From: a virus
DNA length: 64,000 nt
Reading direction: 5' to 3' (one strand)
IMG/VR virus record: IMGVR_UViG_3300044712_001937
Span: 203,681 to 267,680 of that record
Shown here: one piece after another, positions 3,932 through 62,646 of the stretch
Numbering within the stretch: position 1 is the stretch's first letter
Layout of the letters: every line of letters begins with the position of its first letter
Position numbers and translations under genes: made by a program
Notes under the pieces: generated by a model
Database searches by the model: none
Seen by the model: only the letters and a program-made list of their open reading frames with translations
Told to the model about the DNA's origin: nothing

Positions 3932-4720
3932 ATGAGCAAACTTAAGGATTTAATTTCAAAATATGGTAAGGATAAAATTAATACTTTCACCAAATATCCT
4001 TCCATATTAACACTTCATAAATTAGGTGATAAAGGTAGGTTAACTCCTGAATTAACTACAGATGTTAGTGGTGAAACTATGTATGGTACTGAAAAGATTG
4101 ATGGTACTAATACAAGAATCGTTTGTTATGGGTTTGATTATTTATTTGGTTCAAGAGAGAATATTCTATACTATTTTGAAGATTTATATTTTGACCCAGC
4201 ACAAGGAATTGTTGATGGTTTAAAATCTTTGGAGATTGAGAAAATTATCCCCGTAACTGATGATTTTACTGTCATATACGGTGAATTTTATGGTGGAAAG
4301 GTTAGTTCAAATTCAAAGTGGTATGGTCAGGATAAAATAGGTTTCAGGGTATTTGATGTTGCTGTTTATAGCGAAGAAGATTTATTAATATTAGATAAAA
4401 CATTGCCGGAGATATCGAGATGGAGAGAAACCGAAACTGAGACTGGTATTATTTATGGTCAGAATTTTATCACCAGAGATGAGATTATTAATTTAATCCC
4501 AGAGTTTGAGTTAGTACCTTTAATCACTACTAATTTTGGACAATTAGGCGATTATTCACATCAAAATATTTTACAATATCTAAAAACCTATATACCTATA
4601 ACTAATGTAGCTTTATCTGAAACAGCTATAAAGAAAACAGAAGGTTTAGTTTTACGTACTGATGATAGGTCAAAGATTGTGAAAATCAGGTTTGAAGATT
4701 ACGAAAGAACTTTAAGATAA
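3932..4720 (+). CDS. Rnl2-family RNA ligase-like nucleotidyltransferase
   Basis: 'GTEKIDGTNTRI' matches ligase motif I (compare T4 Rnl2 'EKIHGTN'). 'TEGLVLRTDD' fits motif IV (EGxV) and 'KIVKIRFEDY' fits motif V. The start was moved to ATG 3932, just after the stop of the preceding ORF. Confidence 0.55.
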   Translation: MSKLKDLISKYGKDKINTFTKYPSILTLHKLGDKGRLTPELTTDVSGETMYGTEKIDGTNTRIVCYGFDYLFGSRENILYYFEDLYFDPAQGIVDGLKSLEIEKIIPVTDDFTVIYGEFYGGKVSSNSKWYGQDKIGFRVFDVAVYSEEDLLILDKTLPEISRWRETETETGIIYGQNFITRDEIINLIPEFELVPLITTNFGQLGDYSHQNILQYLKTYIPITNVALSETAIKKTEGLVLRTDDRSKIVKIRFEDYERTLR

Positions 4721-8079: not shown

Positions 8080-8913
8080 ATGAATGATAAAAAATCCATA
8101 TGCGTATTATGCGGGAGAGAATGGCTACCTGTAATTAAAAATTTATGCGAATGTGGAGGTTTTTGTACATGGGGGTTTGAACCAAATAAACCTGAAAGTT
8201 TTACTGTTGATGCCGAAGGAAATTGGCATTTAAAACCAATACCAATGATTGAAAAAAAGTCTATAAAACTATCCGATATTAAAGTTAATCTTCCATTCAA
8301 TATACAAAAGAACATGTATATTGGACATTTGATGGATTGGAAAGATGGTATCCATAAATATGGATATAAGGTGGATTTTGATGTTTTTTTACCAACAAAA
8401 GGAATTAATCTTCAACGTGATTTTTGCTGGACAATTGAGCAAAAACAAGAACTTATATTATCGGTAATTAAAGGTGTAGATATTCAAACATTCACAGTTA
8501 TAATTTATATTGAAGATAGTATTAAAAGAGATACTACAATTAAATTCATAGATGGAAAGCAAAGATTCTCAACATTACTTGATTTCATTCAAGATAAATT
8601 TCCGGTAAAATTATTAGGTGAAAGTTATTTATATAGTGAACTTCCTAAAGATATTAAGGATGTTATTGACCATTTCGATATACATTTCAATCAAACATAC
8701 GAATACCAAGATGATTTAATATCTGACGATATGAAAATAGCTTGGTTTGAACAAATTAACTTTGCTGGCACTCCCCAAGATATTGAACATTTAAATCGTT
8801 TAAAATCCGATAAGAAGATTCATAAATCTATTTGTAGTGCTGATAAAATTGGTGCTTGGTGTTTAGGATGTGAAGAAAGAAATAATTGTAAACTTTATCG
8901 CAATAATTTATGA
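8080..8913 (+). CDS. DUF262 (ParB/Srx-like) domain protein with an N-terminal zinc ribbon; paralog of the 147..965 gene
   Basis: 'LQRDFCWTIEQKQELILSV...FIDGKQRFSTLLDF' matches the DUF262 signature. The N-terminus has 'CVLCGREW...CECGGFC'. Confidence 0.55.
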   Translation: MNDKKSICVLCGREWLPVIKNLCECGGFCTWGFEPNKPESFTVDAEGNWHLKPIPMIEKKSIKLSDIKVNLPFNIQKNMYIGHLMDWKDGIHKYGYKVDFDVFLPTKGINLQRDFCWTIEQKQELILSVIKGVDIQTFTVIIYIEDSIKRDTTIKFIDGKQRFSTLLDFIQDKFPVKLLGESYLYSELPKDIKDVIDHFDIHFNQTYEYQDDLISDDMKIAWFEQINFAGTPQDIEHLNRLKSDKKIHKSICSADKIGAWCLGCEERNNCKLYRNNL

Positions 8914-13736: not shown

Positions 13737-15185
13737 ATGAGTGATATTATCTTAACAAGAAAAATAAAACTTGGTGTTTATGTTCCAGAAATTATTGTTG
13801 ATGAAAAAGAACGTAAAACATATAAAGATTTTGTTTGGAGTTTATTACGGAATATTAATCGACAGAATTTTGAATTTCATAATCTATTAGTAAAAAAACT
13901 AATTGAAATTGATGCTATAATTTCCTCTCGATTAAGTGTAGATGATAAATTTATCAAATTAAAAAATAATTATTTTAAAGATAAAAAAGTATCAAAACCT
14001 TATTTTGATTATATCAAACAAACACAAAAAGAATATATTGAATCGTTAAGTTATAAAAATATTAATTCTTATATTTATAATTATTTAGTTCAATATATTA
14101 AATCATTATCTGATGAACAACAATTAATTAATTCATATTCTTATTGCGCAATATCTAAAAATGTTTGTGATAAATATAATGATGATTTATTTGATGTAAA
14201 TAGAGGTATAAAAAACGTTGCCTTTTATAAAAATACTCAACCAATTCCTATTAATATAAAAGCACCTTCATATATTGATGAAAAAGGAGTTAAATCAAAA
14301 TCATTGGGAAAGTTTTGGTTTAATAAACATGAAGATAAATATGTCTTTAAATTTAAATCTTCAAAAAAACATGATATTGAATTATTACTTTTATTTGGTA
14401 AAGATAGAAGTAATAATAGAATTATGATTGATAGAATCTATAATAATGATTCTAATTATAAAATTTGTGATTCTGATATTCAAATTATAGATAATGAAAT
14501 ATTTTTATTATTAACAATAAAACAATTTAATATTGAAAATAAAATTCTCGATAAAAATAAGGTATTAGGAGTTGATTTAGGTATTAAATGTGCTGCATAT
14601 ATTGCTACAAATAATTCATTAGAAAGACAACAAATAGGTTCTAAAGAATTTGTACTATTAAAAACTAAATTGCAAATTGAAAAAGATAAAAGATTACTTC
14701 AACGAAATTCAATATTTTCAAAATCAGGGCATGGAAGAACAAGAAAACTTCAAAAATTAAATGATTTTAAAGAATATGAAAAGAATTTTAGAAATACTTT
14801 TAACCATCAAATATCTTCTGAAATTATAAGTCATGCAATTAAATGGAATTGTGGTCAAATTAATGTAGAAGATTTATCAGCAATACCTTTAGAAGAAAAA
14901 AATAAAAGAATTCTTCGTAATTGGGCATATTTTGATTTATTAAATAAAATTGAATATAAAGCTAAAAAAAATGGAATAAACTTTTTAAAAGTTAATCCAG
15001 CATATACATCCCAAATATGTAATGTTTGTGGGAAAAAAGGTGAACGAATAAAACAAGATACTTTTATTTGTATTAATCAGGATTGTAAATTTCACGATAA
15101 ACCAATTAATGCAGATTATAATGCAGCAATTAATATTGCAAAAAATATTAACATAAAAAAAGAAGAAATTGTATCAATATCCTAA
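13737..15185 (+). CDS. TnpB/Cas12f-like RNA-guided nuclease candidate (split RuvC plus zinc finger), directly upstream of a CRISPR array
   Basis: RuvC-I 'KVLGVDLGIK' (D280). 'SGHGRTRKLQK'. RuvC-II 'INVEDLS' (E378). TnpB hallmark 'NPAYTSQICNVCG'. Zinc finger CxxC...CxxxC ('CNVCG...CINQDC'). RuvC-III 'NADYNAAINIA' (D460). The N-terminal region is about 270 aa, longer than canonical TnpB and in the Cas12f size range. There is no adjacent tnpA. Confidence 0.8.
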   Translation: MSDIILTRKIKLGVYVPEIIVDEKERKTYKDFVWSLLRNINRQNFEFHNLLVKKLIEIDAIISSRLSVDDKFIKLKNNYFKDKKVSKPYFDYIKQTQKEYIESLSYKNINSYIYNYLVQYIKSLSDEQQLINSYSYCAISKNVCDKYNDDLFDVNRGIKNVAFYKNTQPIPINIKAPSYIDEKGVKSKSLGKFWFNKHEDKYVFKFKSSKKHDIELLLLFGKDRSNNRIMIDRIYNNDSNYKICDSDIQIIDNEIFLLLTIKQFNIENKILDKNKVLGVDLGIKCAAYIATNNSLERQQIGSKEFVLLKTKLQIEKDKRLLQRNSIFSKSGHGRTRKLQKLNDFKEYEKNFRNTFNHQISSEIISHAIKWNCGQINVEDLSAIPLEEKNKRILRNWAYFDLLNKIEYKAKKNGINFLKVNPAYTSQICNVCGKKGERIKQDTFICINQDCKFHDKPINADYNAAINIAKNINIKKEEIVSIS

Positions 15186-15820: not shown

Positions 15821-15916
15821 GGTGCTGTTTGTAATGTTGGCTATACATTTTGTCCATGAAGCGTAAAGTGAAGTATGGCAAGCTCAACGTAGGTTCAATT
15901 CCTACCAGCACCACCA
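15821..15916 (+). tRNA. tRNA-like element (96 nt, encoded CCA) with non-canonical anticodon and variable region
   Basis: Perfect 7-bp acceptor stem ggtgctg/cagcacc, discriminator A plus CCA. Perfect T-arm gtagg-ttcaatt-cctac. D-stem tgta/taca with a GG loop. I could not fold a canonical anticodon arm in the 41 nt between the D-arm and T-arm. Confidence 0.35.
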
Positions 15917-22731: not shown

Positions 22732-25017
22732 ATGATTATCAATATAGATAAATTTTCAGACCAAGAAACAGTTTCAACATGTGAAGAAAATGATATTGTA
22801 TTATCAAAGGATTCTCAAAGTATGTTTTTTTCATTATTCACAAAAAACATATACTCAAATCCAATTGGTAGTATAGTTCGTGAAATAACTTCAAATTGTT
22901 TTGATAGTCATATTGAAGCTGGTTGTAATATGCCTGTTTTAATTAAAAAAAGTATAGAAAAAGATACTAATACAAATTACATATCGTTTATCGATTATGG
23001 TGTTGGAATGTCACCTGAAAGAATAGATAAAGTATTTAGAGTGATGTTTTCATCAACAAAACGCTCAGATAACGCACAAATAGGGGGCTTCGGACTCGGT
23101 TCGAAAAGTTGCCTTGCTTACAAGCGTAGCACAGGTTTTGGCGAAGGTGAATATGACAATTCGTATTATATTATTACAGTATATGATAAGATTAAATACA
23201 TATACAATATATATGAAGGTCAAAAATGCCCAAAAATATCCTTACTTCATAGTGAACCAACCGAAGATGGTAATGGTACAGAAGTTAAAATTCCTGTATT
23301 AGAAAAAGATTTACGTACATTCGAATATGAAATGATACGTCAATTATATTATTTCGAAAATATTATTTTTGAAGGTTTCGACAGCACTAAACTTACAAAC
23401 GATTATCAAATTATCAGGGGAAAATCATTCCTATTCAGAGGTAATGAATACAAAGATTCAATCCATGTTTGTTTAGGTAGGGTTGCATATCCTTTAGATT
23501 ATAATACTTTAGGTTTAAACGAATCAGATTATCGTTTACCTGTAGCAATTAAATTAAATGTTGGTGATATAAATGTTGTTGCCAGTCGTGAAGGTTTAGA
23601 TTATTCTGAAAAAACTATTAAGGTAGTTAAAGCTAAACTGGAAGAAGTTAAAAGTGAAATTATTGGTTTGATTTCCAAACAATATGAGAACATTGTTACA
23701 TTGGAAGATTATTTTAAAGTTAAATCTAAGTTTGGATTTCTTTATTTCTCAAACGGTTTATCTATTAATGTAGGTAATGTTATTAGTGTTAAAGATATTA
23801 ACTATAAAAACTTTCGATATAATTCACTTAAATCAATTCCAAAAGATACTGAATTATTTAAGCTGTTTTTCAATGTTGAAGCTTATGGTAAAAAATTAAA
23901 TAAGAATGTACACCGTAGAACCATATTTTTTGATGGAAGTTTCGATGAAATTCTAAGAAAAAATTTCGTTTACTATATAGATACTCCAATGGAACGTAAA
24001 AGAATTAAACGTGCTTATATGAAGTCTCTGCATGAAACATATTTTGTAATTAGGAAAAATAATTTCATTCATTCAACTAATAGAGAAACAATTTGTGATT
24101 TGTTCAATGTTAATTTTAACAGTTTTTACAATAAATCAACTGATGGTCAATGTACGGAACTTACTGATTTTTCAAAAACATTGTTAATGTTAAGAGATGA
24201 GTTGTTTGAAATTGTTACAAAATATCGTCAGGATTATAATGAAGTTAATGTTCCGGAAAATTTCATTCTTGAAAAGAAAAGAAATATTATCGATACTAAG
24301 ATACTTAGAGAAACTAAAATTCAAGTTAAATTCTTTGGTGTCAGTGGTAAAGATAAAGTTAAATTATCAGCATTGTTCGATTTAAACATTCCAATTTTTT
24401 ATGGTTCACAGGATGATGAAAATAAATTAAACAATGCCAGATATATTCATACTACATTGTTCGGTGGTGGGTCAATGATTTCATATTATGAAGAATATGG
24501 TAATAAAATTAACTTTAATTCAGATAAAAAGGGTATATTGTTCATAATGTTAAGTAAGGGTAATTTAAAATATATGCAATATTGCAAAAAAGCTTACCAT
24601 ATAGATAATTATTACTGGAAAATGCTTCATCGTAAAGCTGACATGGTTTATGATTACTTCAACAGTTTTGAATTTATTCAATCATATCAAAACTTATCAT
24701 CAATGTACAAGTCTAATAAGTTTGATATAATTAATAAAGATTGGGGACGTAAAATTAAAAAAGTTAATGAATATTATCAAAAAATAATTTCAAATAAAAA
24801 TAAAAATATTGGTGATATTCGTCAATACTTAACTCCTTATTTTAATTTATCTAATTTAAATCAAAGTACTGAAAATAAAAAAATAAGCAGTATACTTGAT
24901 GATATTTATAAATTAAAAACTGCTAATGAAAAATCTATTAGGTATATTAATATGCCAAATGATTTTTCAACAGATGAAGTATTAATTGATATATTAAAAA
25001 AAGTTATGATATTTTAA
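22732..25017 (+). CDS. Hsp90/HtpG-like GHKL-family ATPase (761 aa)
   Basis: N-box 'NIYSNPIGSIVREITSNCFDS' (compare Hsp90 'LYSNKEIFLRELISNASDA'). G1 'IDYGVGMS'. G2 'IGGFGLGSKS'. The rest of the protein is not recognisable to me. Confidence 0.5.
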   Translation: MIINIDKFSDQETVSTCEENDIVLSKDSQSMFFSLFTKNIYSNPIGSIVREITSNCFDSHIEAGCNMPVLIKKSIEKDTNTNYISFIDYGVGMSPERIDKVFRVMFSSTKRSDNAQIGGFGLGSKSCLAYKRSTGFGEGEYDNSYYIITVYDKIKYIYNIYEGQKCPKISLLHSEPTEDGNGTEVKIPVLEKDLRTFEYEMIRQLYYFENIIFEGFDSTKLTNDYQIIRGKSFLFRGNEYKDSIHVCLGRVAYPLDYNTLGLNESDYRLPVAIKLNVGDINVVASREGLDYSEKTIKVVKAKLEEVKSEIIGLISKQYENIVTLEDYFKVKSKFGFLYFSNGLSINVGNVISVKDINYKNFRYNSLKSIPKDTELFKLFFNVEAYGKKLNKNVHRRTIFFDGSFDEILRKNFVYYIDTPMERKRIKRAYMKSLHETYFVIRKNNFIHSTNRETICDLFNVNFNSFYNKSTDGQCTELTDFSKTLLMLRDELFEIVTKYRQDYNEVNVPENFILEKKRNIIDTKILRETKIQVKFFGVSGKDKVKLSALFDLNIPIFYGSQDDENKLNNARYIHTTLFGGGSMISYYEEYGNKINFNSDKKGILFIMLSKGNLKYMQYCKKAYHIDNYYWKMLHRKADMVYDYFNSFEFIQSYQNLSSMYKSNKFDIINKDWGRKIKKVNEYYQKIISNKNKNIGDIRQYLTPYFNLSNLNQSTENKKISSILDDIYKLKTANEKSIRYINMPNDFSTDEVLIDILKKVMIF

Positions 25018-25077: not shown

Positions 25078-26268
25078 ATGGCAAATAAAATAAGTATTCA
25101 CGTAGTTAAAACAGGTAATACTGTCCACATTAGTCTTGGTGGCAAGCTTATTGATAAAAACTGCGGTAATCCTAAAGAAGCTGATGAGTTATTTAAAATA
25201 GTTCTTGCTGCGAAGGAAAATCCAAGTGAAGATAACTTACGCAAAATTCGTGCATATGTAAATGAAAAATTGCGTGTAGCATATTTAACAGGATTAGAAC
25301 ATGACCCAGATACTGGTGAAGTATTCTTGGCAGGTTTCAATACCCCAATTCCTCAAACATTGGTTGATATTATCAGGGAGTATCACGAAAATAAATATCC
25401 GTTAACACCAATTTTTAACTTCTGGAAGTTATTAATGATTAATCCGGATAAGCGTGTACGTGAAAGTTTATTCAAATTTATTACTGCTCACGATTTCTCA
25501 TTAACAGATATGGGATATATGATTGTTTATAAAGCAGTATATTTAAAAGACCAAAAACCTGTTCGTGATACTACTTATGAAGATTTCATAAGCACTCAAT
25601 ATCTTCACGTAAAGAATAACTGGAAATGTAGTCCTAATAAATATGTGGTTTATAAAAACCTTGCAGATTTTACTTTTGCAATTACAAAATATGAAACTGC
25701 TAAGACTTGGGACGAAAAAGAAAAAAATATCGAAATTCTTGGTAAACTTGGCGATATCTATTCAGCCATTGTTGTTGAAGATAATAAACCGCTTCAATAC
25801 ACTGATATGTATTCCCAAACCATGACCATTGAACTTGGTGTACCAGCGAAGAAGGAAAGAAAAGATTGTGATGCTAATCCAGATAAGAATTGCTCTAATG
25901 GATTACATTGCGGTGCAACAAACTATGTAAGCAATTATGCCAAGAAGACAAGTCATATTCTTGTATGTTTTGTCAATCCAATGAATGTTATAGCAGTACC
26001 ACATTATAACCATTCAAAAATGAGGGTTTCAGAATATTTTCCATTCGCTTTAGCTGAATATGATTTTGATAAGAAAAAGATTTCAATTATTGAAGAAAAA
26101 TATTTCGAAAATGATTATAAAGCTTATGAAGTTATAGAACTCGAAAAATTGGTTACTAAAGTGAAATCAGAAGAAAAACCAATTGAAAAAGCACAAAATG
26201 CCGAAGATGAAGTACGTCCAATGTCTGAATTATTAAAAATTATTGAGGGAAGAATGATTGATTTATAA
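25078..26268 (+). CDS. Hypothetical protein (396 aa), preceded by the promoter motif and followed by a strong terminator
   Basis: It has the least AT-biased codon usage in the area. A TCGTATATTTACG motif lies upstream at 25037-25048 and a hairpin at 26289-26323 follows. Confidence 0.45.
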   Translation: MANKISIHVVKTGNTVHISLGGKLIDKNCGNPKEADELFKIVLAAKENPSEDNLRKIRAYVNEKLRVAYLTGLEHDPDTGEVFLAGFNTPIPQTLVDIIREYHENKYPLTPIFNFWKLLMINPDKRVRESLFKFITAHDFSLTDMGYMIVYKAVYLKDQKPVRDTTYEDFISTQYLHVKNNWKCSPNKYVVYKNLADFTFAITKYETAKTWDEKEKNIEILGKLGDIYSAIVVEDNKPLQYTDMYSQTMTIELGVPAKKERKDCDANPDKNCSNGLHCGATNYVSNYAKKTSHILVCFVNPMNVIAVPHYNHSKMRVSEYFPFALAEYDFDKKKISIIEEKYFENDYKAYEVIELEKLVTKVKSEEKPIEKAQNAEDEVRPMSELLKIIEGRMIDL

Positions 26269-26288: not shown

Positions 26289-26323
26289 AAAAACCGATAT
26301 CTTTATAAGATATCGGTTTTTTA
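26289..26323 (+). terminator. Rho-independent terminator (aaaaccgatatctttataagatatcggtttttt)
   Basis: Perfect 11-bp stem followed by a T-run. Confidence 0.7.
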
Positions 26324-28084: not shown

Positions 28085-28567
28085 ATGTTAAACCAATGGA
28101 AGATTAATCATATGACTATTACTTATCTTAAAGGTGATGTAACATATCCAATTGGTGATGGTAATAAAATAATACCGCACTGTTGTAATGATTCTTCAAA
28201 ATGGGGGCGTGGTTTCGTCTTGGCTCTCAGCAAACGTTGGAGAGAACCCGAAGAAGTTTATCGTTCAGTAAAACTAGAAAATCTTATTCTTGGAAAAGTT
28301 CAATTCATTTGTGTTGAAAATGATATTATTGTTGCAAACATGGTTGGTCAACATGATATTAAACCTAATGAATTAGGCGAACCTCCTGTTAGATATTGGG
28401 CAATAAGAAAATGTTTACAACAAGTAAACCGCATGGCAAAATTATCTAATTCAACAATACATTGCCCTAAGTTCGGAAGTGGCTTAAGTGCTGGAAAATG
28501 GGAAGAGATTGAAAAAATTATTATAGAAACTATTGAAGTGGATGTATTTGTTTATGATTTAATTTAA
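28085..28567 (+). CDS. Macro domain protein (ADP-ribose binding or hydrolase)
   Basis: 'IIPHCCNDSSKWGRGFVLAL' fits the macro 'VNAAN..L..GGGV..AI' motif. 'IHCPKFGSGLSAGKWEEI' fits 'IAFPAISTGIYGYP.EE'. Confidence 0.5.
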   Translation: MLNQWKINHMTITYLKGDVTYPIGDGNKIIPHCCNDSSKWGRGFVLALSKRWREPEEVYRSVKLENLILGKVQFICVENDIIVANMVGQHDIKPNELGEPPVRYWAIRKCLQQVNRMAKLSNSTIHCPKFGSGLSAGKWEEIEKIIIETIEVDVFVYDLI

Positions 28568-28573
28568 AATAAT

Positions 28574-28942
28574 ATGGAAAACAAATCTATAAAAATTAAT
28601 GTACCCGAAGGGTTTGAAATTGATAAGGATAAATCAACGTTTGATGAAATTATTTTTAAGCCAAAACAGAGTTTTGAAAAAGATATGTCAGACTTTTTGT
28701 TTAATATTATCAATGGTTCAACCATGATAATGACTGAAAAGGATGAAGTCACATATTATAAAGATAATGAATGGATTCTGCAACAGGATTTTAAAAAAGA
28801 TAATTTATGGGTTAGATATTCATTAATTTGGGTAATTTTTGAGAAAAAATATAGTCTTAACAACCAACAAATCAGTGATTTTATTAAGGGTTGGGTAGAA
28901 ACCAACCTAAATTGGAAGGGATTAACACCAGGTTGCTGGTGA
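28574..28942 (+). CDS. Hypothetical protein, paralog A (MENKSIKINVPEGFEIDKDKS...), whose 3' end runs into a 36-nt repeat
   Basis: Paralogous to 29880..30287. Most nucleotide differences between the two are synonymous or conservative. The C-terminal 'VETNLNWKGLTP' is encoded by the repeat. Confidence 0.55.
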   Translation: MENKSIKINVPEGFEIDKDKSTFDEIIFKPKQSFEKDMSDFLFNIINGSTMIMTEKDEVTYYKDNEWILQQDFKKDNLWVRYSLIWVIFEKKYSLNNQQISDFIKGWVETNLNWKGLTPGCW

Positions 28943-29879: not shown

Positions 29880-30287
29880 ATGGAAAACAAATCTATAAAA
29901 ATTAACGTACCCGAAGGGTTTGAAATTGATAAAGATAAATCAAGTTTCGAAGAAATCGTTTTTAAAATAAAACAAGATATAAATAAAGAAATGTCAGATT
30001 TCTTATTTAAAATCGTCAATGGTTGTATGATGAAAATGACTGATGAAAATAAAATCACTTATTATAAGGATGATGAGTGGATTTTACAACAGGATTTTAA
30101 AAAGAGTTATTTATGGATTAGATATTCATTAATTTGGGAAATTTTCGAGAAAAAATATGCTCTTAACTATCAACAAATCAAGAATTTTATAGTGGGTTGG
30201 GTAGAAACAAACCTAAATTGGAAGGGATTAACACCGCGACCTAAATGGAGTAATGTTCCTCATGAGGTAGAAACAAACCTAAATTAG
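29880..30287 (+). CDS. Hypothetical protein, paralog B of 28574..28942, also ending in the repeat
   Basis: 135-aa ORF. Protein identity to paralog A is high and the differences are codon-level. Confidence 0.55.
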   Translation: MENKSIKINVPEGFEIDKDKSSFEEIVFKIKQDINKEMSDFLFKIVNGCMMKMTDENKITYYKDDEWILQQDFKKSYLWIRYSLIWEIFEKKYALNYQQIKNFIVGWVETNLNWKGLTPRPKWSNVPHEVETNLN

Positions 30288-30334: not shown

Positions 30335-30368
30335 AAAAAACCTGTATATTCTACAGGTTTTTTATTTT
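30335..30368. terminator. Bidirectional terminator between the convergent + and - blocks (aaaaaacctgtatattctacaggtttttt)
   Basis: 8-bp stem with an A-run and a T-run on the two sides. Confidence 0.65.
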
Positions 30369-30983
30369 GATAAGTATTTGACCAAGTAAAACTAACACAG
30401 AACCAATAATCCACCACCAAATATTTTCTTGTATAATATTCCATGTTAATTTCAACCAATCTGGATGATAAAAATAAAAATTTATTAATAATATTATTAA
30501 AATAACAGCTCCAAATGCGAAACAAATTATTGATATTAAAATTCTAAAACCAATTAAATCTTTTAAAAAATTTTTCATATTTTAACTTTTAATCATTATC
30601 AACACCATCATCTATTAACCATCCTAAGAACATTCCAAAGAATAATATCCAACTTAACATTGATAAGAAAAACATTAAAATTCCAGCATCAAAATCAATA
30701 CTATTTTGTTTCTTATCTCTTAATAGATATATTCCCCACATAAATGATACAATATATCCAATTATCCATATTTTAATACAAATATTCATATTGCTTTTTT
30801 TAATTAACCAAATTTATGACAAATAAATATGCAAGTCAAGTAAAATTTGAAAAATATGATATATGAAAGAAAATTCATAATTAATAAATTATTACCTATA
30901 ATTGTAATAATATAATTTATTACATATTATCATAATAAACTAAATTTAATACAGCAGAATAAACTAATTTTAATACAAAAAAT

Positions 30984-31015
30984 AAACCCGGATATCTTAA
31001 ATGATATCCGGGTTT
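30984..31015 (-). terminator. Hairpin terminator downstream of the flotillin-like gene (aaacccggatatcttaaatgatatccgggttt)
   Basis: 12-bp stem flanked by A and T runs. Confidence 0.6.
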
Positions 31016-31039
31016 ATAATTTAATTAAGCAAATTTAAA

Positions 31040-32941
31040 TTATGCTTTTTTATCTGATTTAGGTGTTGCAACAGGAGTGATTGAATTATTTACTGGATTA
31101 ATATAATTCAGCATTTGTATCGCAGCTAAACTATCGATTGAACTTCCACCTTGACCACCTGTAATTAATATCTTAGGCATAAGTTCTAATTTACCTGCAG
31201 CAATTGCATCAATCATTTTCAATTTACCGAATGCATCCTGACCAATAGCTTTAGCTTGTTCTTCATATGCTTTAGCAGTTGCATTACCTTTTAATTCAAT
31301 AACATTAGCTTCAGCAGTACCAGTTTTTGTTGTTCTTTCAGCTTCAGCAACAGCTTGAAGAGTAATAGATTGAGCATTACCTTCAGCTTTAAGAACGTTA
31401 GATGCTTTATCACCTTCAGCTTTAAGAATATTAGATTTCTTTTCACCTTCAGCTTCTTTAACTTTCTGTGCAGCAATTTTTTCTGCAATAACTACGCCTT
31501 GGTCTGCTTTAACAAGTTCACCTTGAATATCTGCAATACTCTTTTGTTTTTCCAAATCCTGACGGGTTTGTTGTGTGATAATTTGAGTAGAGTAGGTTTT
31601 ATTGGTTTCTTCGGCAATCTTACGGTCAGTCAAAGTTTTCATTAAGTCAGCAGGTGGAACGATATCACCGATTAATGTATCAACAGCAGTTACGTTATAT
31701 TCTTTTAATACTGAAGATATATGCATTTTTGATTCAGTTTGACGTTCTTTTCTATCAACCAAGAAAGCAATAACATCTGAATTTTGAGCAGAGTTACGGA
31801 AATAGTTACCAATTGTTGGCTCAAGTACTTGAGAAACCAAGTTCTTCATATTACCAAAACGTGCGATAACTTTAGATGCTTCAGTTGAAGGTACATGTAT
31901 AATCTGACTTACATCAAGATTGAAAGCAAAACCGTCTTTTGAACGTACAGTAATAGTAGAAAGATTTTCATCTAACTTATGTGATTCATTACGATTATTT
32001 GCCCAATTTAATACAATGTTTGTAGTTGGAACAACTTCCATTCTTTGAGTTGCAGGATTAATTGCATATTTGCCGGGGTCGAATGGAACATTCCAAACGC
32101 CTTTTTTGCCGTTTGCAACAATATTTCCATGACCAAATTTTTCACCTGTTAAATCTTCACCTTTATCACCAACAAATGAAATAATAACACCAACAGAACC
32201 AATTGGAACTTCAGTTAATGGAACTTCCTTAAAACTTACAAACCAAGGATTAAAATTATATGTACCTGACTGTACGATTTGAGATTGAATACCTCTTTGA
32301 CCTCCATTATTCAAGAAAGATTCTATATCTTGAAAATTATTATGGTTTGGTACTTCTTTACCTGCAATTTCACCTGATGGTAATGGTTCTCCATCTAAGG
32401 TTGTTATAACCCCTACCATATTTTCATTAATACGGGTAATTTCTTTTGCTACAATTTTAAATAAATTAGTGTTAATACGATATGACCCTGCAGGTATATA
32501 TGTTGCTTGTCTACCTTTTTGTCCACCGTTTTGTAAAAATGCTGCAGCATCAGTAAAATCTTGACATTCTACATATCTACCTAAAATTGAACCGACAGTT
32601 ATAGCTTTTCCATCTTCAGCATACACTAAACCAATACATCCAGAAGGTATATTAGTTAATGGTACTAATTTTACATCAAATTTCCAAGGATATAACCAAA
32701 AATGAAAACCCGGTGTTAGAGTCTGTGCCTGATAACCAGCTTCACCGTTTATAGCAAACAAACGTCCTTCAGATAATGCAAGAGCACCACCCCAGAATCT
32801 AAACTTTTTGTTTACAAGACCAACTTTATCTTCCGGAACATTAATAATTCCGAATAGTCGCATAATACCGTTAAAGAAAACGATACTTAAAATTATTAGT
32901 AGAATCCACCAATAATTCGATAATAAACCTAATACAATCAT
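31040..32941 (-). CDS. Flotillin-like SPFH (band 7) family membrane protein
   Basis: N-terminal TM helix. SPFH-like 'PGFHFWLYPW'. The C-terminus has Ala/Glu/Lys-rich repeats 'KAEGDKASNVLKAEGNAQSI...AKAYEEQAKAIG' typical of flotillin/YqiK. Confidence 0.6.
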   Translation of the reverse strand: MIVLGLLSNYWWILLIILSIVFFNGIMRLFGIINVPEDKVGLVNKKFRFWGGALALSEGRLFAINGEAGYQAQTLTPGFHFWLYPWKFDVKLVPLTNIPSGCIGLVYAEDGKAITVGSILGRYVECQDFTDAAAFLQNGGQKGRQATYIPAGSYRINTNLFKIVAKEITRINENMVGVITTLDGEPLPSGEIAGKEVPNHNNFQDIESFLNNGGQRGIQSQIVQSGTYNFNPWFVSFKEVPLTEVPIGSVGVIISFVGDKGEDLTGEKFGHGNIVANGKKGVWNVPFDPGKYAINPATQRMEVVPTTNIVLNWANNRNESHKLDENLSTITVRSKDGFAFNLDVSQIIHVPSTEASKVIARFGNMKNLVSQVLEPTIGNYFRNSAQNSDVIAFLVDRKERQTESKMHISSVLKEYNVTAVDTLIGDIVPPADLMKTLTDRKIAEETNKTYSTQIITQQTRQDLEKQKSIADIQGELVKADQGVVIAEKIAAQKVKEAEGEKKSNILKAEGDKASNVLKAEGNAQSITLQAVAEAERTTKTGTAEANVIELKGNATAKAYEEQAKAIGQDAFGKLKMIDAIAAGKLELMPKILITGGQGGSSIDSLAAIQMLNYINPVNNSITPVATPKSDKKA

Positions 32942-43342: not shown

Positions 43343-44269
43343 TTAGTTATATAAATTACTATTAAGAATATATTTTAACACATCTGGAGTTATGTAATGA
43401 AGCAATTCTTTATCAATTGATTCAATTTCAAAACTTTTATCATTAAAAGTAATTTTATTTATAGTATCATTACGTTCTTTAAGCAAGTCTCTAACCTGAG
43501 TAGAAGATGATTCCATGATGGTAGATTCTGCGGTAAGATAAATATGAGGATATTTAAAATACCACGCATTTTGAAGAGGCTGGTAACCTTTTCTTGGAAC
43601 TATAACCATTCGTATCATTCTTTCGAGTTCTTCAAAATTTACCCATGTATCGAATGAATTTGCATTATCTAATCCAACAACAAGAGAAAAATTATAACGT
43701 TCGTTTAATTCTTTCTCCATTTTTAACTTTTTAATCATATAATATGATTCGCCTTTTAATTTATGCTGAATTTCATAATCAAATATTTTAATTCTCGCAT
43801 CAACTTTTGCTGCAAGTTTACACATTTCCAAACGGTGTTCTGGACTTTCCATTATTTTTCCGTTCATATGTTCATATGCCGGAACAAGCCAAACTTCATC
43901 AAATTCGCCACTGGTATTCAATATAAATTGTGCTGCCTGAATATGACCTATTGTTATTGGGTTGAAAGCACCACCATATAATGCAACTTTAGTTTTTCGA
44001 CCTAATGATAAATATTGTTGTCTTCTGCTTTCAATTTTCTCTAAAGTTCTACCAATTAATTCAGCAGCATCCCAACCATTTTCATTACATAACTGTAATA
44101 GTGATGCTAAGATATCTCCGGTTTCTTCTTTAAGATTAATTACATCTTGCCATTTCATGAGTTCAAAGAATTCACCTTGAATATCTTTTAAACGTTCTTT
44201 TAATGGAGTATAACCAAAATGTTCTGTGAACACATCATTTACAACTTTTTGAATTTTATTTATTTCCAT
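43343..44269 (-). CDS. MazG-like NTP pyrophosphohydrolase domain fused to an NMN/NaMN adenylyltransferase (NadD/NMNAT family)
   Basis: The N-terminal roughly 100 aa are MazG/HisE-like. The C-terminus has 'ALYGGAFNPITIGH' ((H/T)xGH motif) and 'ISSTQVRDLL' (the NadD ISSTxxR motif). Confidence 0.65.
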   Translation of the reverse strand: MEINKIQKVVNDVFTEHFGYTPLKERLKDIQGEFFELMKWQDVINLKEETGDILASLLQLCNENGWDAAELIGRTLEKIESRRQQYLSLGRKTKVALYGGAFNPITIGHIQAAQFILNTSGEFDEVWLVPAYEHMNGKIMESPEHRLEMCKLAAKVDARIKIFDYEIQHKLKGESYYMIKKLKMEKELNERYNFSLVVGLDNANSFDTWVNFEELERMIRMVIVPRKGYQPLQNAWYFKYPHIYLTAESTIMESSSTQVRDLLKERNDTINKITFNDKSFEIESIDKELLHYITPDVLKYILNSNLYN

Positions 44270-59768: not shown

Positions 59769-61662
59769 ATTTTACATAAATTTTTAAGTTCTTCCCAAGT
59801 AGGGGTAGTTCCTTTATTAACAAAAAATTCAATACCTAAAGAATGCCAATTATCACCATAACATAATTCAAATTTATCATTTTCATCTTTTACAAGATAA
59901 GCAGAATCATATGAAGCACCATCCATAATAAAATGGTCAACTGTTGACGAATTTGCAATCAATTCATCAAATTCATCATTCATTATAATAAATTTTCTAA
60001 AATTAAACCAATCTTTAACAAAATCACCTGAATTAAATATCATATGACAACTTTTAATATCACCATATACTAATTTAACTGAAGTATATCCCAAATTAGT
60101 TTTATTTCCTTCATCATAAACAATACTAACAACTGCCATTATAATAAATTTTTAATATTAATCAATTCAAATTCTTCAAGCATTGGACTACCTGTACTAT
60201 TAATAGCAACACTGTTAAATTTTTTTAACCAATTCAAAATATCTTCTTTTTCGCCATTAATAATTACATTATCACCAATTTTAACGATAATATCGTCATC
60301 AGTAGTATCAGGTGGAAATATTACTTTAATTTCACCAAAATTAAAATCAATTGAAATCGAATCTGGTATTGTTTTTTTTAAACTTTCGGTTAGTAGGATG
60401 TTAAGTACCATAATTAATGATTATTTTTCCTATATTTTTCCCTATTATTTTTTTTATATGATTTAATTTTTTCATCTGCAAAATCATTTGCAAATTTCAT
60501 TACTTCTGCAATTGTCCAATCACCAAGTTCTTTTCCACCTTTATAAGTTTTATCACACCATTCACTTATATAATTCTCCGCAATCATATTTAATGATTAT
60601 TTTATCCAAACTTCTTTATAATCAACTAAATTATCTGTATTGAAAGGCAAAACTGAGGTTAAATACTTAGCTTCCTCTTTATTGATTTTTTGTTTATCCC
60701 AAATTTCACTTAGTTGTTCATCTGAAAAATATCCCAAAGGAAATAATTTAGTTGTGTATACATTTATATCAATGAACGTATTTTCAGGTAATTTTTTGAA
60801 CATATAATAAACATACATAACTCCTTTACCGGGAGACTCTATATGCTCCAATAACATTAATAAACAACCAAAACTTATTTTCAAAGTTGTTAATGCTTTT
60901 AATCTACTTAAAAATACTTGTACTTGAAAAATAGATAAAACTTGTTTATATTCTTCAGATTCTTTATCAAATTCTTCAACATTTTTATTTAAAATTGGAT
61001 TATCTGAAAATAATATACCAATCATATTTTTTGTTTCATCCTCTGACATAGGAGTATTAGGAGAATGTTGGTCGAAAATTTCGGAAAGTAAATTAAGGTT
61101 CATTACTATTTAAATTTAGTTAATAATAAACAAATGTATTAAAATTTCTGAAAATGAACAATAAATTAACATATTTTTTAAAATGGCAAAGTATCATTAT
61201 TTTCAACAGCTTCATCTAAATCAATTAATGATATTATATATGAATTAACATCATAACCATCATATAAGCCTATTACAACACCTCTTTTCGATTTTTTTAC
61301 TATTGATTTTATCATTTGATAATTATCATTAGGTTCATATAAATTTAACATAACTTTAATTGAATTCATAGGTTTTTTAACTTCAATAATAGGTTCACTT
61401 TTGTCAACTAAACCATTATCAAGGTTAACAGGTAGTAATATATCATATTTAGGATTAATAATATCATTATCTACATCATATTCAAATTCAAATGTAGTTA
61501 TAAATCTAATCTTATTAATAGGGACTTGATTATCTAAAAGCAAGTCCCTATTAATTTTAATTAAATTAACTGGTGTTAAATTATCACCAGTCGTATGTTT
61601 TTCATAAACAATGATTTTCTTTTTAAAAGTGATGAATGGAAATTTAAATGAAAATTGTAAGC

Positions 61663-62058
61663 TCATAACTTAATGTTTTGCATCAATCTGTTTTTCATAT
61701 TTTCCAATGTTTCTTTTGGAACATTATGTTCATTAACTCCATTATGCCTATTTTCAATTACAATATAGAATACCTTATAACCAAAAAGTTCAGCCATTGT
61801 CGAATATGGTAACATATCCTTTTCAGTTGTATTTGTATTTGCAATAACAATACGTTCTGCATTAGCACGCATAAATTTCATACACTTACGTTGACACCAT
61901 TTATGTGCTTTATATGCATTATCATATGACCAATTATATTTTCCATCATGCATCATATAATCATCAGCAGTACAAATAGCTTTAGTACCCAATGTTTTAG
62001 CAAATGTCGATTTCCCAGCTCCCGGACATGCCCTTAATATATAGAGAATTTTTTCCAT
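61663..62058 (-). CDS. Small P-loop kinase (AAA_33 or polynucleotide-kinase-like)
   Basis: Walker A 'CPGAGKSTFAKT' at the N-terminus. Its size and position next to a ligase-like gene suggest a nucleic-acid 5'-kinase. Confidence 0.45.
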   Translation of the reverse strand: MEKILYILRACPGAGKSTFAKTLGTKAICTADDYMMHDGKYNWSYDNAYKAHKWCQRKCMKFMRANAERIVIANTNTTEKDMLPYSTMAELFGYKVFYIVIENRHNGVNEHNVPKETLENMKNRLMQNIKL

Positions 62059-62094: not shown

Positions 62095-62646
62095 TTAATC
62101 ATCAAATTCGAAGTCTATATCTATAGCTTCTAATTGTTTTTCGCTATATTCAGACCTTATTTTTTTACGAACTTCCATTAATGCTTTACCCAATAAATTC
62201 ATGCCCTGCCATTTTCTTTCATCAAGAACATCATCATTACTCCAAATCAAACCAATACCCCATATTTTATCAACTGGAGAAGCCTCAACTAATGTTTTTG
62301 CTTTGGTATGTAATAATGAAGTTTTTAAACGTAAATTTTGAGTAAATTTAGCATAATTAACATCAACCATAACTTGAAATGATATTATCATCCATTGTTC
62401 TGGATTGAAATTTTTAACTTTTCTTCCTAATGCTTTATTTTCTTTTGGATTTGGAGTTTTAATTATTAATTCAGCAGTTTCCATATCACCAAAGTATATC
62501 GCTTTTTCCCACATAAATGCTTGTTCAGTATTGAAAAAAGTAATTCCTTTATATTTGAATTTACATTCGAACCAATTTGAATATATACCACTCCAAAAAT
62601 ATATGTGACTTTTTGTTATTCGTTCACCTTCAGTATAGTTTTTCAT
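62095..62646 (-). CDS. NADAR (YbiA/DUF1768) domain protein
   Basis: 'FWSGIYSNWF...FFNTEQAFMWEKA...KIWGIGL' matches the YbiA motifs 'FYS..FSNF...TSEHYFQAQKF...AYWGDG'. Confidence 0.65.
   Translation of the reverse strand: MKNYTEGERITKSHIYFWSGIYSNWFECKFKYKGITFFNTEQAFMWEKAIYFGDMETAELIIKTPNPKENKALGRKVKNFNPEQWMIISFQVMVDVNYAKFTQNLRLKTSLLHTKAKTLVEASPVDKIWGIGLIWSNDDVLDERKWQGMNLLGKALMEVRKKIRSEYSEKQLEAIDIDFEFDD

What the first reader, a model, noticed from the sequence alone, without database searches (positions are those of the whole stretch)
28085..28567. ADP-ribose and NAD toolkit: macro domain, NADAR and MazG-NMNAT fusion scattered across the window
Three separate genes encode a macro domain (28085-28567), a NADAR/YbiA domain (62095-62646) and a MazG-like domain fused to an NMN/NaMN adenylyltransferase (43343-44269). 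Macro and NADAR domains remove ADP-ribose from protein or DNA, which is the DarT-type modification. NMNAT regenerates NAD+. Together they look like a counter-defence set against ADP-ribosylating and NAD-depleting immunity (DarTG, Thoeris, SIR2/TIR systems). The MazG-NMNAT fusion architecture is itself unusual.
Basis: partly seen in the sequence, partly recalled or inferred. Interest (0 to 1): 0.6.

Follow-up and report, generated by a model that had tools for sequence, protein, structure and literature searches.

The report
Huge-phage NAD and ADP-ribose genes
A fragment of a giant bacteriophage genome carries three real but separate genes, two that strip ADP-ribose marks and one that helps make NAD; all are of kinds already known to help phages resist bacterial immunity, and the only under-described part is a MazG domain fused to the NAD enzyme.

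Summary
All three genes exist at the stated coordinates and the domain calls are correct. The macro gene most likely starts at 28112. Pfam's Macro model misses it, but it is about 55% identical to the solved macrodomain BT1257 and clearly related to SCO6735. The NADAR call is strong. The MazG-NadD fusion passes both Pfam cut-offs and models as a four-helix bundle joined to a NadD fold.

The genes are not an operon. They are 15 to 18 kb apart, and the macro gene is on the opposite strand. The 64-kb window holds no detectable Nampt, PncA, PncB, NadE, PnuC, NadR, Nudix, ART, SIR2 or NAD-dependent ligase.

In related huge phages the same fusion sits in NAD-salvage islands with NadE, PncA, PncB, PnuC, NadR and a macrodomain. 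This points to the Preiss-Handler route (NaMN to NaAD), not direct NAD+ regeneration.

Phage NADAR (AdfN), phage macrodomain (AdfM) and "NAD-jumbo phages" are already published, so the counter-defence reading is plausible but not new and not tested here.

The fusion is common in huge-phage contigs and almost absent from bacterial genomes. Its MazG subtype also occurs fused to NAD kinase. I found no description of it in the searchable literature. Interest is moderate.

The parts
28112..28567 (+). Stand-alone macrodomain protein of 151 aa, in the SCO6735/BT1257 subgroup of the ALC1-like class. The longest ORF starts at 28085, but 28112 is the likely start.
   Evidence: PDB sequence hits: 2fg1 E=7e-47, 5e3b E=5e-33, ALC1 macrodomain E=4e-13. 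phrog_335 E=7.5e-27. SCO6735 residues N27, Q85, K89 and G128 are conserved as N35, Q89, K93 and G133 in 160-aa ORF numbering. The called gene on record (P0121) is 151 aa. The start-codon context was read directly.
43994..44269 (-). N-terminal MazG-like all-alpha NTP pyrophosphohydrolase domain of the fusion protein (residues 1-92).
   Evidence: PF03819 scores 30.3 bits. A profile of this domain hits the C-terminal domain of E. coli MazG (3cra, E=3.5e-5) and 2yxh. E36, E49 and D52 are invariant, and E33 and E48 nearly so, in 30 homologues. AF2 predicts helices at 3-17, 23-40, 43-64 and 68-89.
43343..43993 (-). NadD-type nicotinate/nicotinamide mononucleotide adenylyltransferase domain of the same protein (residues 93-308).
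   Evidence: PF01467 scores 59.7 bits and TIGR00482 scores 107.6 bits. PDB NadD hits reach E=1.7e-13. Foldseek to NadD structures gives TM(target) 0.82-0.87. The motifs GGAFNPITIGH and SSSTQVR are present.
62095..62646 (-). Stand-alone NADAR protein of 183 aa, of the type with Glu at the YbiA-type position.
   Evidence: PF08719 scores 156.7 bits. PDB 8bau E=4.4e-18 and YbiA 2b3w E=1.1e-5. TEQAFMWEK and VEASPVDKIWGIG align to the catalytic Glu/Lys and Glu/Asp/Trp positions (residue roles from PMC11543638). 813 phage records carry a homologue.
61663..62058 (-). Small P-loop kinase resembling polynucleotide kinase, 36 nt downstream of NADAR. It is a recurrent neighbour and possibly part of the NADAR module.
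   Evidence: phrog_2071 E=1.9e-40 and phrog_505 polynucleotide kinase E=1.3e-7. PF13671 scores 26.9 bits. T4 Pnk 1ltq E=1.2e-3. A homologue (50-61% identity) lies within about 2.7 kb downstream of NADAR in 15 of 34 related IMG/VR loci.
61178..61666 (-). ORF of 162 aa with unknown function. It overlaps the kinase stop by 4 nt and recurs with the NADAR-kinase pair.
   Evidence: Coordinates. A homologue is found downstream of NADAR in 13 of 34 related loci. No Pfam hit.

Best explanation
The window comes from a huge, AT-rich phage. A protein identical to the fusion is on record on a 364,702-bp contig. The host is probably Bacteroidota, but that is an inference. The phage carries three independently placed accessory genes of the NAD+/ADP-ribose network.

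1. The 151-aa macrodomain is an SCO6735/BT1257-type hydrolase. It most likely removes ADP-ribose from thymidine in single-stranded DNA (the DarT2 product) and possibly from acidic residues in proteins.

2. The NADAR most likely cleaves the N-glycosidic bond of guanine-linked ADP-ribose (the DarT1 or ScARP type of product). It sits in a recurrent module with a small kinase resembling polynucleotide kinase.

3. The MazG-NadD protein most likely performs the adenylyltransferase step of phage-driven NAD salvage, probably NaMN + ATP -> NaAD + PPi. The preference for NaMN is inferred from gene context in relatives. In relatives this gene lies among PncA, PncB, NadE, PnuC, NadR and a macrodomain. In this phage the other steps must come from genes outside the window or from the host. 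The MazG domain keeps its metal-binding acidic residues and is probably an active pyrophosphohydrolase with an unknown substrate.

The net effect would be to keep NAD available and erase ADP-ribose marks during infection. That would help both replication and escape from NAD-depleting or DNA-ADP-ribosylating defences.

What is shown here: gene reality, domain identity, residue conservation, gene context in relatives. What is inferred: every substrate, and the counter-defence role.
For: - Domain identity.
- Functional residues: macro N35/Q89/K93/G133 match SCO6735 N27/Q85/K89/G128. SCO6735 reverses DarT thymidine-ADP-ribosylation and rescues cells from DarT (PMC9411070).
- NADAR Glu/Lys/Glu positions are conserved (PMC11543638).
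- Phage NADARs from three lineages counter DarTG1 (PMC11257639). The phage macrodomain AdfM counters DarTG2 (PMC13309987).
- Fusion context in relatives: PncA is the next gene and PncB lies 4 kb away in a 616-kb phage. The same holds in L023. L024 reads NadE-PncA-PncB-fusion-TonB receptor-macro-NadR. L006 reads NadE-PncA-PnuC-TonB receptor-fusion-macro-NadR, with overlapping genes.
- Of 21 related loci examined, 8 have another NAD biosynthesis or transport gene within 10 kb and 4 have a macrodomain.
- In the closest relative the macro and fusion genes are only 3 kb apart, in the same rIIA-rIIB-...-macro order.
- The MazG acidic residues are invariant or nearly so across 30 homologues.
- The same MazG subtype is also fused to NadD-NAD kinase and to NAD kinase alone, once directly after NadE.
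- Published precedent exists for nadD and pncB-nadD-nadE clusters in jumbo phages (PMC11662467).
Against: - No enzyme activity was tested.
- In this window the three genes are 15-18 kb apart, with the macro gene on the opposite strand, and they share no operon.
- No PncA, PncB, NadE, Nampt, PnuC, NadR, Nudix, ART, SIR2 or LigA was detected in the 64 kb. NAD synthesis cannot be completed from the genes seen.
- The concatenated-ORF Pfam scan may have lost weak hits, and many ORFs have no annotation.
- 13 of the 21 related loci show no NAD gene within 10 kb of the fusion.
- T4 NADAR and YbiA are active in vitro but did not protect cells from DarT1 (PMC11125620). In-vitro family activity therefore does not guarantee a counter-defence role.
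- The macro protein has Gln where DarG and AdfM have the catalytic Lys.
- NaMN versus NMN preference cannot be read from the sequence.
- No DarTG or NADase system of the unknown host was examined.
Confidence: 0.6

Rival explanations
1. The NAD enzyme is metabolic support, not counter-defence. MazG-NadD raises or maintains NAD for the phage's own NAD-using enzymes, such as NAD-dependent DNA ligase and dehydrogenases, during a long infection by a very large genome. This overlaps with the best explanation and differs only in the selective reason.
For: In a 678-kb relative the fusion lies about 1 kb downstream of an NAD-dependent DNA ligase and near adenylosuccinate synthase. Over half of the 'NAD-jumbo phages' encode LigA (PMC11662467). 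NARP2 raises NAD even without a defence system (10.1101/2024.02.11.579819).
Against: LigA was near the fusion in only 1 of 21 related loci, and none was found in the window. The recurrent neighbours are salvage genes starting from nicotinamide, which is the product of immune NADases, plus a macrodomain.
Confidence: 0.3
2. The macro and NADAR proteins process small ADP-ribose by-products of RNA repair, or they reverse the phage's own ADP-ribosyltransferases. They do not erase host DarT marks. Examples of such by-products are ADP-ribose-1''-phosphate from Tpt1-type 2'-phosphotransferase and O-acetyl-ADP-ribose.
For: NADAR is followed by a kinase resembling polynucleotide kinase in the window and in 15 of 34 relatives. 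An Rnl2-type RNA ligase lies at 3881-4720. phrog_335 is labelled 'phosphatase', and weak hits to ADP-ribose-1''-phosphate phosphatases exist. The published survey proposes soluble ADP-ribose derivatives as substrates (PMC9503650). In Streptomyces phages the homologous macro gene sits next to Sir2 or ART genes.
Against: No Tpt1/KptA, sirtuin, 2H phosphoesterase or ART was detected in the window. The best-characterised close homologue, SCO6735, acts on DNA and protein substrates. All phage NADARs tested so far act on guanine-ADP-ribose DNA.
Confidence: 0.15
3. There is no 'toolkit'. The three genes are unrelated passengers that co-occur only because very large phages accumulate NAD/ADP-ribose genes, and related phages share gene order by descent.
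For: The genes are scattered and the macro gene is on the opposite strand. [quoted passage not shown] Immediate neighbours of the fusion are not conserved beyond close relatives. Two 208-349 kb relatives carrying macro and NADAR were not picked up by the fusion search.
Against: Different macrodomain genes sit within 0-3 kb of the fusion in four relatives, in one case with overlapping reading frames inside an NAD operon. That is hard to explain without a functional link between the macrodomain and NAD salvage.
Confidence: 0.3
4. The NADAR is a YbiA-like N-glycosidase that removes reactive riboflavin-pathway intermediates.
For: TIGR02464 'riboflavin biosynthesis intermediates N-glycosidase' scores 153.5 bits (cut-off 73.7). 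Several phage homologues are annotated 'GTP cyclohydrolase II'.
Against: No riboflavin gene was found in the window. YbiA itself also hydrolyses guanine-ADP-ribose (PMC11125620). The best solved match is the ADP-ribose-binding NADAR 8bau, not YbiA.
Confidence: 0.05

Closest known systems
SCO6735 (Streptomyces coelicolor) and BT1257 (Bacteroides thetaiotaomicron) macrodomains, a subgroup of the ALC1-like class
   Same: Single-domain protein of about 150 aa. It is about 55% identical to BT1257 and matches SCO6735 at E=5e-33. It keeps N27, Q85, K89 and G128 and the long mobile loop.
   Different: It is phage-encoded. V25 is replaced by Cys (only the backbone of that residue is implicated). G87 is replaced by Asp. 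SCO6735 Lys93, a basic residue of the mobile loop in the alignment, is not conserved. Activity is untested.
AdfM, the phage macrodomain anti-DarTG2 factor of chimalliviruses (PMC13309987)
   Same: A stand-alone phage macrodomain of the same broad class. The expected job is the same: removing DarT2 ADP-ribose from DNA.
   Different: AdfM is DarG2-like and has the catalytic Lys (PhiKZ K78). The window protein has Gln at that position, the SCO6735 type of mechanism. The PADLOC DarG model scores only 14.5 bits.
AdfN (T4 gp30.3) and the other phage NADARs shown to counter DarTG1, NADAR-Bas32 and NADAR-Bas60 (PMC11257639)
   Same: A stand-alone phage NADAR with the conserved active site. It shares 34-40% identity with NADARs of 137-151 kb E. 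coli phages such as ukendt, muut, anhysbys and W70. Whether these belong to the same group as Bas60 was not checked.
   Different: The window protein has Glu at the position where T4-type phage NADARs have His and DarT1-linked NADARs have Asp. It lies next to a kinase resembling polynucleotide kinase.
NARP2 (Nampt plus NadM-type Nmnat-Nudix, vibriophage KVP40) and NARP3 (PnuC plus NadR)
   Same: A phage-encoded adenylyltransferase step of NAD synthesis, fused to a pyrophosphohydrolase-type domain.
   Different: The adenylyltransferase here is NadD-type, not NadM or NadR. The fused domain is an N-terminal MazG, not a C-terminal Nudix or kinase. No Nampt or PnuC lies in the window. The partners in relatives are PncA, PncB and NadE.
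'NAD-jumbo phages' with pncB-nadD-nadE (Preiss-Handler) clusters (PMC11662467)
   Same: Huge phages, many with Bacteroidota hosts, that carry nadD. That paper also notes that the 735-kb phage LR756501, which holds the best GenBank match to the fusion (48% identity), carries nadD alone.
   Different: That paper does not mention the MazG domain (0 occurrences) or the macrodomain inside the islands. This window shows nadD without any detectable partner.
E. coli MazG and Thermotoga MazG-related protein (all-alpha NTP pyrophosphohydrolases)
   Same: Four-helix-bundle domain with the ExxE...ExxD acidic set.
   Different: It is a single 90-residue domain fused to NadD. The subtype is small: 113 cluster representatives among 1.84 billion. 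It is repeatedly fused to NAD-pathway enzymes. The substrate is unknown.

Membership tests
Macrodomain, SCO6735/BT1257 subgroup of the ALC1-like class | Sequence homology to solved members across the whole domain | tested here: met
   2fg1 E=7e-47 over residues 8-159. 5e3b E=5e-33. ALC1 macrodomain E=4e-13. The Pfam Macro HMM gives no hit.
Macrodomain, SCO6735/BT1257 subgroup of the ALC1-like class | Asn27, Gln85 (in place of the DarG/TARG1 Lys) and Gly128, plus the extended mobile loop with Lys89 | tested here: met
   N35, Q89, G133 and K93 are present. SCO6735 Lys93, a basic residue of the mobile loop in the alignment, is replaced by Leu. Residue roles are from PMC9411070.
Macrodomain, SCO6735/BT1257 subgroup of the ALC1-like class | Hydrolysis of thymidine-linked ADP-ribose on ssDNA, and rescue from DarT | not testable with these tools
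   Needs a gel-shift assay on DarT2-modified oligonucleotide and a toxicity-rescue assay.
DarG (DarTG2 antitoxin) / AdfM | Catalytic Lys (DarG K80); for DarG also a C-terminal DarT-binding domain and an adjacent darT gene | tested here: not met
   Gln occupies the Lys position. The protein is a single domain of 151 aa. PADLOC DarG scores 14.5 bits, E=0.0047. No ART was detected in the window.
NADAR superfamily | Match to the family profile above the curated threshold | tested here: met
   PF08719 scores 156.7 bits against a cut-off of 35.1.
NADAR superfamily | Active-site Glu and Lys (P. nicotianae E43 and K50) and the acidic residue at the E125 position | tested here: met
   TEQAFMWEK and VEASPVDKIWGIG align to these positions in 8bau. 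Residue roles are from PMC11543638.
AdfN (T4-type phage NADAR) / DarG1 (DarT1-linked NADAR) | His (T4-type) or Asp (DarT1-linked) at the E125-equivalent position; for DarG1 also an adjacent darT1 gene | tested here: not met
   Glu occupies that position. The neighbours are a P-loop kinase and unknown ORFs.
NadD (nicotinate-nucleotide adenylyltransferase) | (H/T)xGH and ISSTxxR nucleotidyltransferase motifs | tested here: met
   GGAFNPITIGH and SSSTQVR are present. H109 and S255/S256/R260 are invariant in 30 homologues. The motif definitions come from general knowledge of the HIGH-type nucleotidyltransferase superfamily.
NadD (nicotinate-nucleotide adenylyltransferase) | Score above the equivalog cut-off, and a NadD fold | tested here: inconclusive
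   TIGR00482 scores 107.6 bits against a cut-off of 112.45. The AF2 model superposes on NadD structures with TM(target) 0.82-0.87. NaMN versus NMN preference cannot be decided.
MazG / all-alpha NTP pyrophosphohydrolase | Four-helix bundle with the conserved ExxE...ExxD metal-binding residues | tested here: met
   PF03819 scores 30.3 bits (cut-off 22). E33, E36, E48/E49 and D52 are conserved. The AF2 model has four helices. A profile of the domain hits 3cra and 2yxh.
NARP2 (phage Nampt plus Nmnat pathway) | A Nampt (NadV) gene in the same genome, and a NadM-type Nmnat | tested here: not met
   No NAPRTase or Nampt domain was found in any window ORF. The enzyme is NadD-type. The other roughly 300 kb of the genome could not be read.
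Phage Preiss-Handler cluster (pncA/pncB-nadD-nadE, 'NAD-jumbo phage') | All steps encoded by the phage, usually clustered | tested here: inconclusive
   Not met in the window: tblastn with the relatives' PncA, PncB, NadE, PnuC and NadR finds nothing. Met in relatives L003, L006, L008, L016, L019, L021 and L026. The rest of this genome was not available.

The most novel reading that the evidence does not exclude
The roughly 90-residue MazG-like domain may be a pyrophosphohydrolase module dedicated to the NAD pathway. It would be the functional counterpart of the Nudix domain of NadM, acting on an NAD-related nucleotide such as NaAD, NAD, an ADP-ribose derivative or an immune signal, rather than on ordinary NTPs. 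Under this reading MazG-NadD, together with PncA, PncB, NadE and an embedded macrodomain, forms a fourth phage NAD+ reconstitution route. This route would be based on the Preiss-Handler pathway and typical of huge phages. It would recycle the nicotinamide released by immune NADases.
Probability: 0.25. Interest if true: 0.65.

Novelty: new variant of a known kind. Interest (0 to 1): 0.4.

Why it matters
NAD depletion and DNA ADP-ribosylation are widespread bacterial defences. The phage countermeasures NARP1-3, AdfN and AdfM have only recently been described, and mostly in phages of model hosts.

This window shows the same logic in an uncultured huge phage, with different parts:
- a Gln-type (SCO6735-like) macrodomain instead of a DarG-like one;
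- a Glu-type NADAR paired with a small kinase;
- a NadD fused to a MazG domain, which in relatives anchors islands encoding the nicotinamide -> nicotinate -> NaMN -> NaAD -> NAD route.

If the MazG domain has an NAD-related substrate, that would add a new enzymatic step to phage NAD rebuilding and give a marker gene for finding such islands. If not, the finding is a well-annotated but ordinary example of the NAD/ADP-ribose gene load of jumbo phages.

Tried and rejected
- Pfam and NCBIfam on the macro ORF gave no hit. The assignment rests on PDB and PHROG matches instead.
- Megablast of 18 kb of the window against GenBank phages found nothing, so no close cultured or deposited relative exists.
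- I tried to recover the window's own 364.7-kb contig through exact-protein look-up. Only a 2,986-bp JGI contig came back. The rest of the genome could not be searched for Nampt, PncB, NadE, LigA or ART.
- For a whole-window Pfam scan I joined ORFs with Gly-Ser linkers. The linkers produced a spurious 'Serglycin' hit, which I ignored. No further NAD/ADP-ribose genes were found.
- I looked for a conserved immediate partner of the fusion. Upstream and downstream ORFs are conserved only in the closest relative, so this idea was rejected.
- The sigma-70 promoter scan gave fewer matches than shuffled sequence (141 against 158) and is uninformative. Only terminator-like hairpins at 26289-26321, 30335-30363 and 30982-31017 help to delimit the plus-strand block that holds the macro gene.
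- I considered filing the fusion under NARP2 or NadM and rejected it: the adenylyltransferase type is wrong and there is no Nampt.
- I considered filing the macro protein as DarG or AdfM and rejected it: Gln replaces the catalytic Lys, and there is no second domain and no DarT.
- Literature searches for a MazG-NadD fusion found no description. One metabolic-engineering paper treats MazG as an NAD-pathway gene, without evidence I could use.
Full report
**What is in the sequence**

The window is AT-rich (24-28% G+C). It is packed with short ORFs, two LAGLIDADG homing endonucleases, a TnpB-like gene and one tRNA call. It has no nucleotide-level match among deposited phages.

ORFs lie exactly at the three stated positions. 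A protein identical to the fusion is on record on a 364,702-bp contig (P0001). Its relatives sit on contigs of 170-680 kb and on IMG/VR viral contigs. The best GenBank match is the 735-kb uncultured phage LR756501 at 48% identity. The window is therefore part of a huge phage.

A Bacteroidota host is an inference. It rests on the closest bacterial macro homologues, on TonB-dependent receptors in relatives, and on the host range reported for similar phages (PMC11662467).

**The macro gene**

Pfam and NCBIfam do not recognise it. Sequence search against solved structures gives:
- BT1257 (2fg1): E=7e-47, about 55% identity;
- the SCO6735 macrodomain (5e3b): E=5e-33;
- the ALC1 macrodomain: E=4e-13;
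- weaker hits to TARG1/OARD1 and ADP-ribose-1''-phosphate phosphatases.

The start is most likely 28112, not 28085.

SCO6735 removes DarT-made thymidine-ADP-ribose from ssDNA and rescues cells from DarT. N27, Q85 and G128 are needed for its activity and K89 helps DNA binding (PMC9411070). The window protein has N35, Q89, G133 and K93 at these positions. It has Gln where DarG, TARG1 and the phage factor AdfM have the catalytic Lys. It therefore works like the SCO6735 group and is not a DarG or AdfM member. The PADLOC DarG model scores only 14.5 bits.

The gene lies in a plus-strand block that is collinear with a close relative: rIIA-like, rIIB-like, several small genes, macro, more small genes.

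**The NADAR gene**

The Pfam score is 156.7 bits. The best solved match is the NADAR 8bau. The alignment conserves the Glu and Lys of the TEQAFMWEK segment and the Glu, Asp and Trp of VEASPVDKIWGIG. These correspond to the residues that bind ADP-ribose and are needed for guanine de-ADP-ribosylation (PMC11543638).

The Glu at the third position marks the YbiA-type group. T4-type phage NADARs have His there and DarT1-linked NADARs have Asp.

Homologues at 30-55% identity occur in 813 deposited phage genomes. They include Staphylococcus, Listeria and Bacillus phages, 137-151 kb E. coli phages and Prevotella Lak phages. Three phage NADAR lineages have been shown to counter DarTG1 (PMC11257639). 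However, T4 NADAR and YbiA failed to protect cells in another assay (PMC11125620).

A 131-aa P-loop kinase resembling polynucleotide kinase follows the gene after 36 nt. It recurs downstream of NADAR in 15 of 34 related loci.

**The MazG-NadD fusion**

Both Pfam domains pass their thresholds. NCBIfam places the C-terminal part with NadD, 5 bits under the equivalog cut-off. The AF2 model (pLDDT 89, pTM 0.78) is a four-helix bundle running straight into a Rossmann fold. It superposes on bacterial NadD structures but on no solved two-domain protein.

The nucleotidyltransferase motifs are intact. The MazG acidic residues E33, E36, E48/E49 and D52 are invariant or nearly so in 30 homologues. The MazG half is at least as conserved as the NadD half.

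The architecture is not rare:
- at least 517 homologues were found, and the best 120 are 277-308 aa long and 56-100% identical;
- 17 related loci are on IMG/VR viral contigs;
- only three matches occur among 185,579 species-representative genomes, all on 10-42 kb MAG contigs assigned to unrelated taxa, which suggests mis-binned phage DNA.

**Context in relatives**

This is the main new evidence.
- In a 616-kb phage the next gene after the fusion is an isochorismatase-family protein (PncA-like). A nicotinate phosphoribosyltransferase (PncB) lies 4 kb further on. Another contig shows the same order.
- One contig reads NadE, PncA, PncB, fusion, TonB-dependent receptor, macrodomain, NadR-like.
- Another reads glutamine-dependent NadE, PncA, PnuC, TonB-dependent receptor, fusion, macrodomain (overlapping the fusion's stop), NadR-like.

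Of 21 related loci examined, 8 have another NAD biosynthesis or transport gene within 10 kb. Four have a macrodomain, one has a NADAR and one has an NAD-dependent ligase.

This supports NaMN adenylylation within a nicotinamide -> nicotinate -> NaMN -> NaAD -> NAD route. It also supports a real link between NAD salvage and a macrodomain in this phage group.

In the window itself none of these partners is present. The macro gene is 15 kb from the fusion, against 3 kb in the closest relative.

**The MazG subtype**

A search of 1.84 billion cluster representatives with residues 1-92 finds only 113 relatives. Besides MazG-NadD, these include MazG-NadD-NAD kinase and MazG-NAD kinase proteins. One of them sits directly after NadE.

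The domain therefore travels with ATP-using enzymes of NAD(P) synthesis. Its substrate is unknown. The analogy with the Nudix domain of NadM is an inference.

**Comparison with what is known**

The following are already published:
- phage NADAR as an anti-DarTG1 factor (2024);
- phage macrodomain as an anti-DarTG2 factor (2026);
- NARP1, NARP2 and NARP3;
- a survey showing nadD and pncB-nadD-nadE clusters in jumbo phages.

That survey and the Aravind-group census do not mention a MazG-NadD fusion. Nor did targeted searches find one.

**Verdict**

The counter-defence interpretation is plausible and in line with precedent, but it is untested. It is overstated as a linked 'set', and it is imprecise about NAD regeneration.

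The macro and NADAR genes are new members of known kinds. The MazG-NadD gene is an under-described variant of the known phage NAD-synthesis theme. Interest is moderate.

Noticed in passing
window 22732-25017 (+) and 25078-26268 (+): A 761-aa HATPase_c protein and a 396-aa protein are 56% and 61% identical to neighbouring genes in a relative. In that relative the second gene carries Pfam Phage_T4_rIIB. This is probably an rIIA/rIIB-like pair, just upstream of the block that contains the macro gene.
   Followed up: partly
window 13737-15185 (+): TnpB/Cas12f-like gene (Cas12f1-like_TNB 65 bits, OrfB_IS605) inside the phage genome. Similar genes occur near the fusion in relatives L002 and L029.
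   Followed up: no
window 15821-15916 (+): ARAGORN calls a 96-nt tRNA-His with anticodon printed as 'atg'. This is unusually long and the anticodon is atypical. It may contain an intron or be a false call.
   Followed up: no
window 28574-28942 (+) and 29880-30287 (+): Two paralogous ORFs directly after the macro gene share an almost identical N-terminus (MENKSIKINVPEGFEIDKDKS...) and C-terminal motifs. A homologue sits at the same place in the relative L031.
   Followed up: no
window 30982-31017: A perfect 15-bp-stem hairpin with T-runs on both sides lies at the point where plus-strand genes meet minus-strand genes. It is likely a bidirectional terminator.
   Followed up: no
window 147-965 (+) and 8080-8913 (+): The first protein matches GmrSD_N/DUF262 (83 bits), and Pfam reports a second matched stretch elsewhere in the concatenated ORFs. 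Both proteins contain a DGKQR motif, so the second stretch probably lies in 8080-8913, but I did not map it. Such domains are usually associated with DNA-modification-dependent nucleases.
   Followed up: no
window 3881-4720 (+): RNA ligase (PF09414, 47 bits). Together with the kinase at 61663-62058, which resembles polynucleotide kinase, it hints at an RNA-repair capacity.
   Followed up: no
window 31040-32941 (-): A 633-aa membrane protein with an SPFH/Band 7 domain (87 bits).
   Followed up: no
window 52066-52896 (-): A 276-aa ABC/SMC-type ATPase (SMC_N, AAA_21 and AAA_23 hits). This type is often seen in abortive-infection or OLD-like systems, here inside a phage.
   Followed up: no
L006 7436-9565 and L024 11174-13132 (relatives): TonB-dependent outer-membrane receptor genes are embedded in the phage NAD islands, next to PnuC or the fusion. 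This suggests phage-driven uptake of an NAD precursor across the outer membrane.
   Followed up: no
P0262, P0278, P0279 (633-763 aa) and P0313, P0320 (556-558 aa): The same MazG subtype occurs in MazG-NadD-NAD kinase and MazG-NAD kinase fusions. P0262 lies directly after a glutamine-dependent NadE on a 9.9-kb contig of unclear origin.
   Followed up: partly
Streptomyces phage records H11, H14, H31: In about 130-kb Streptomyces phages the homologous macro gene lies next to genes annotated Sir2/NAD-dependent deacetylase or ADP-ribosyltransferase. This is a different context from the one here.
   Followed up: no
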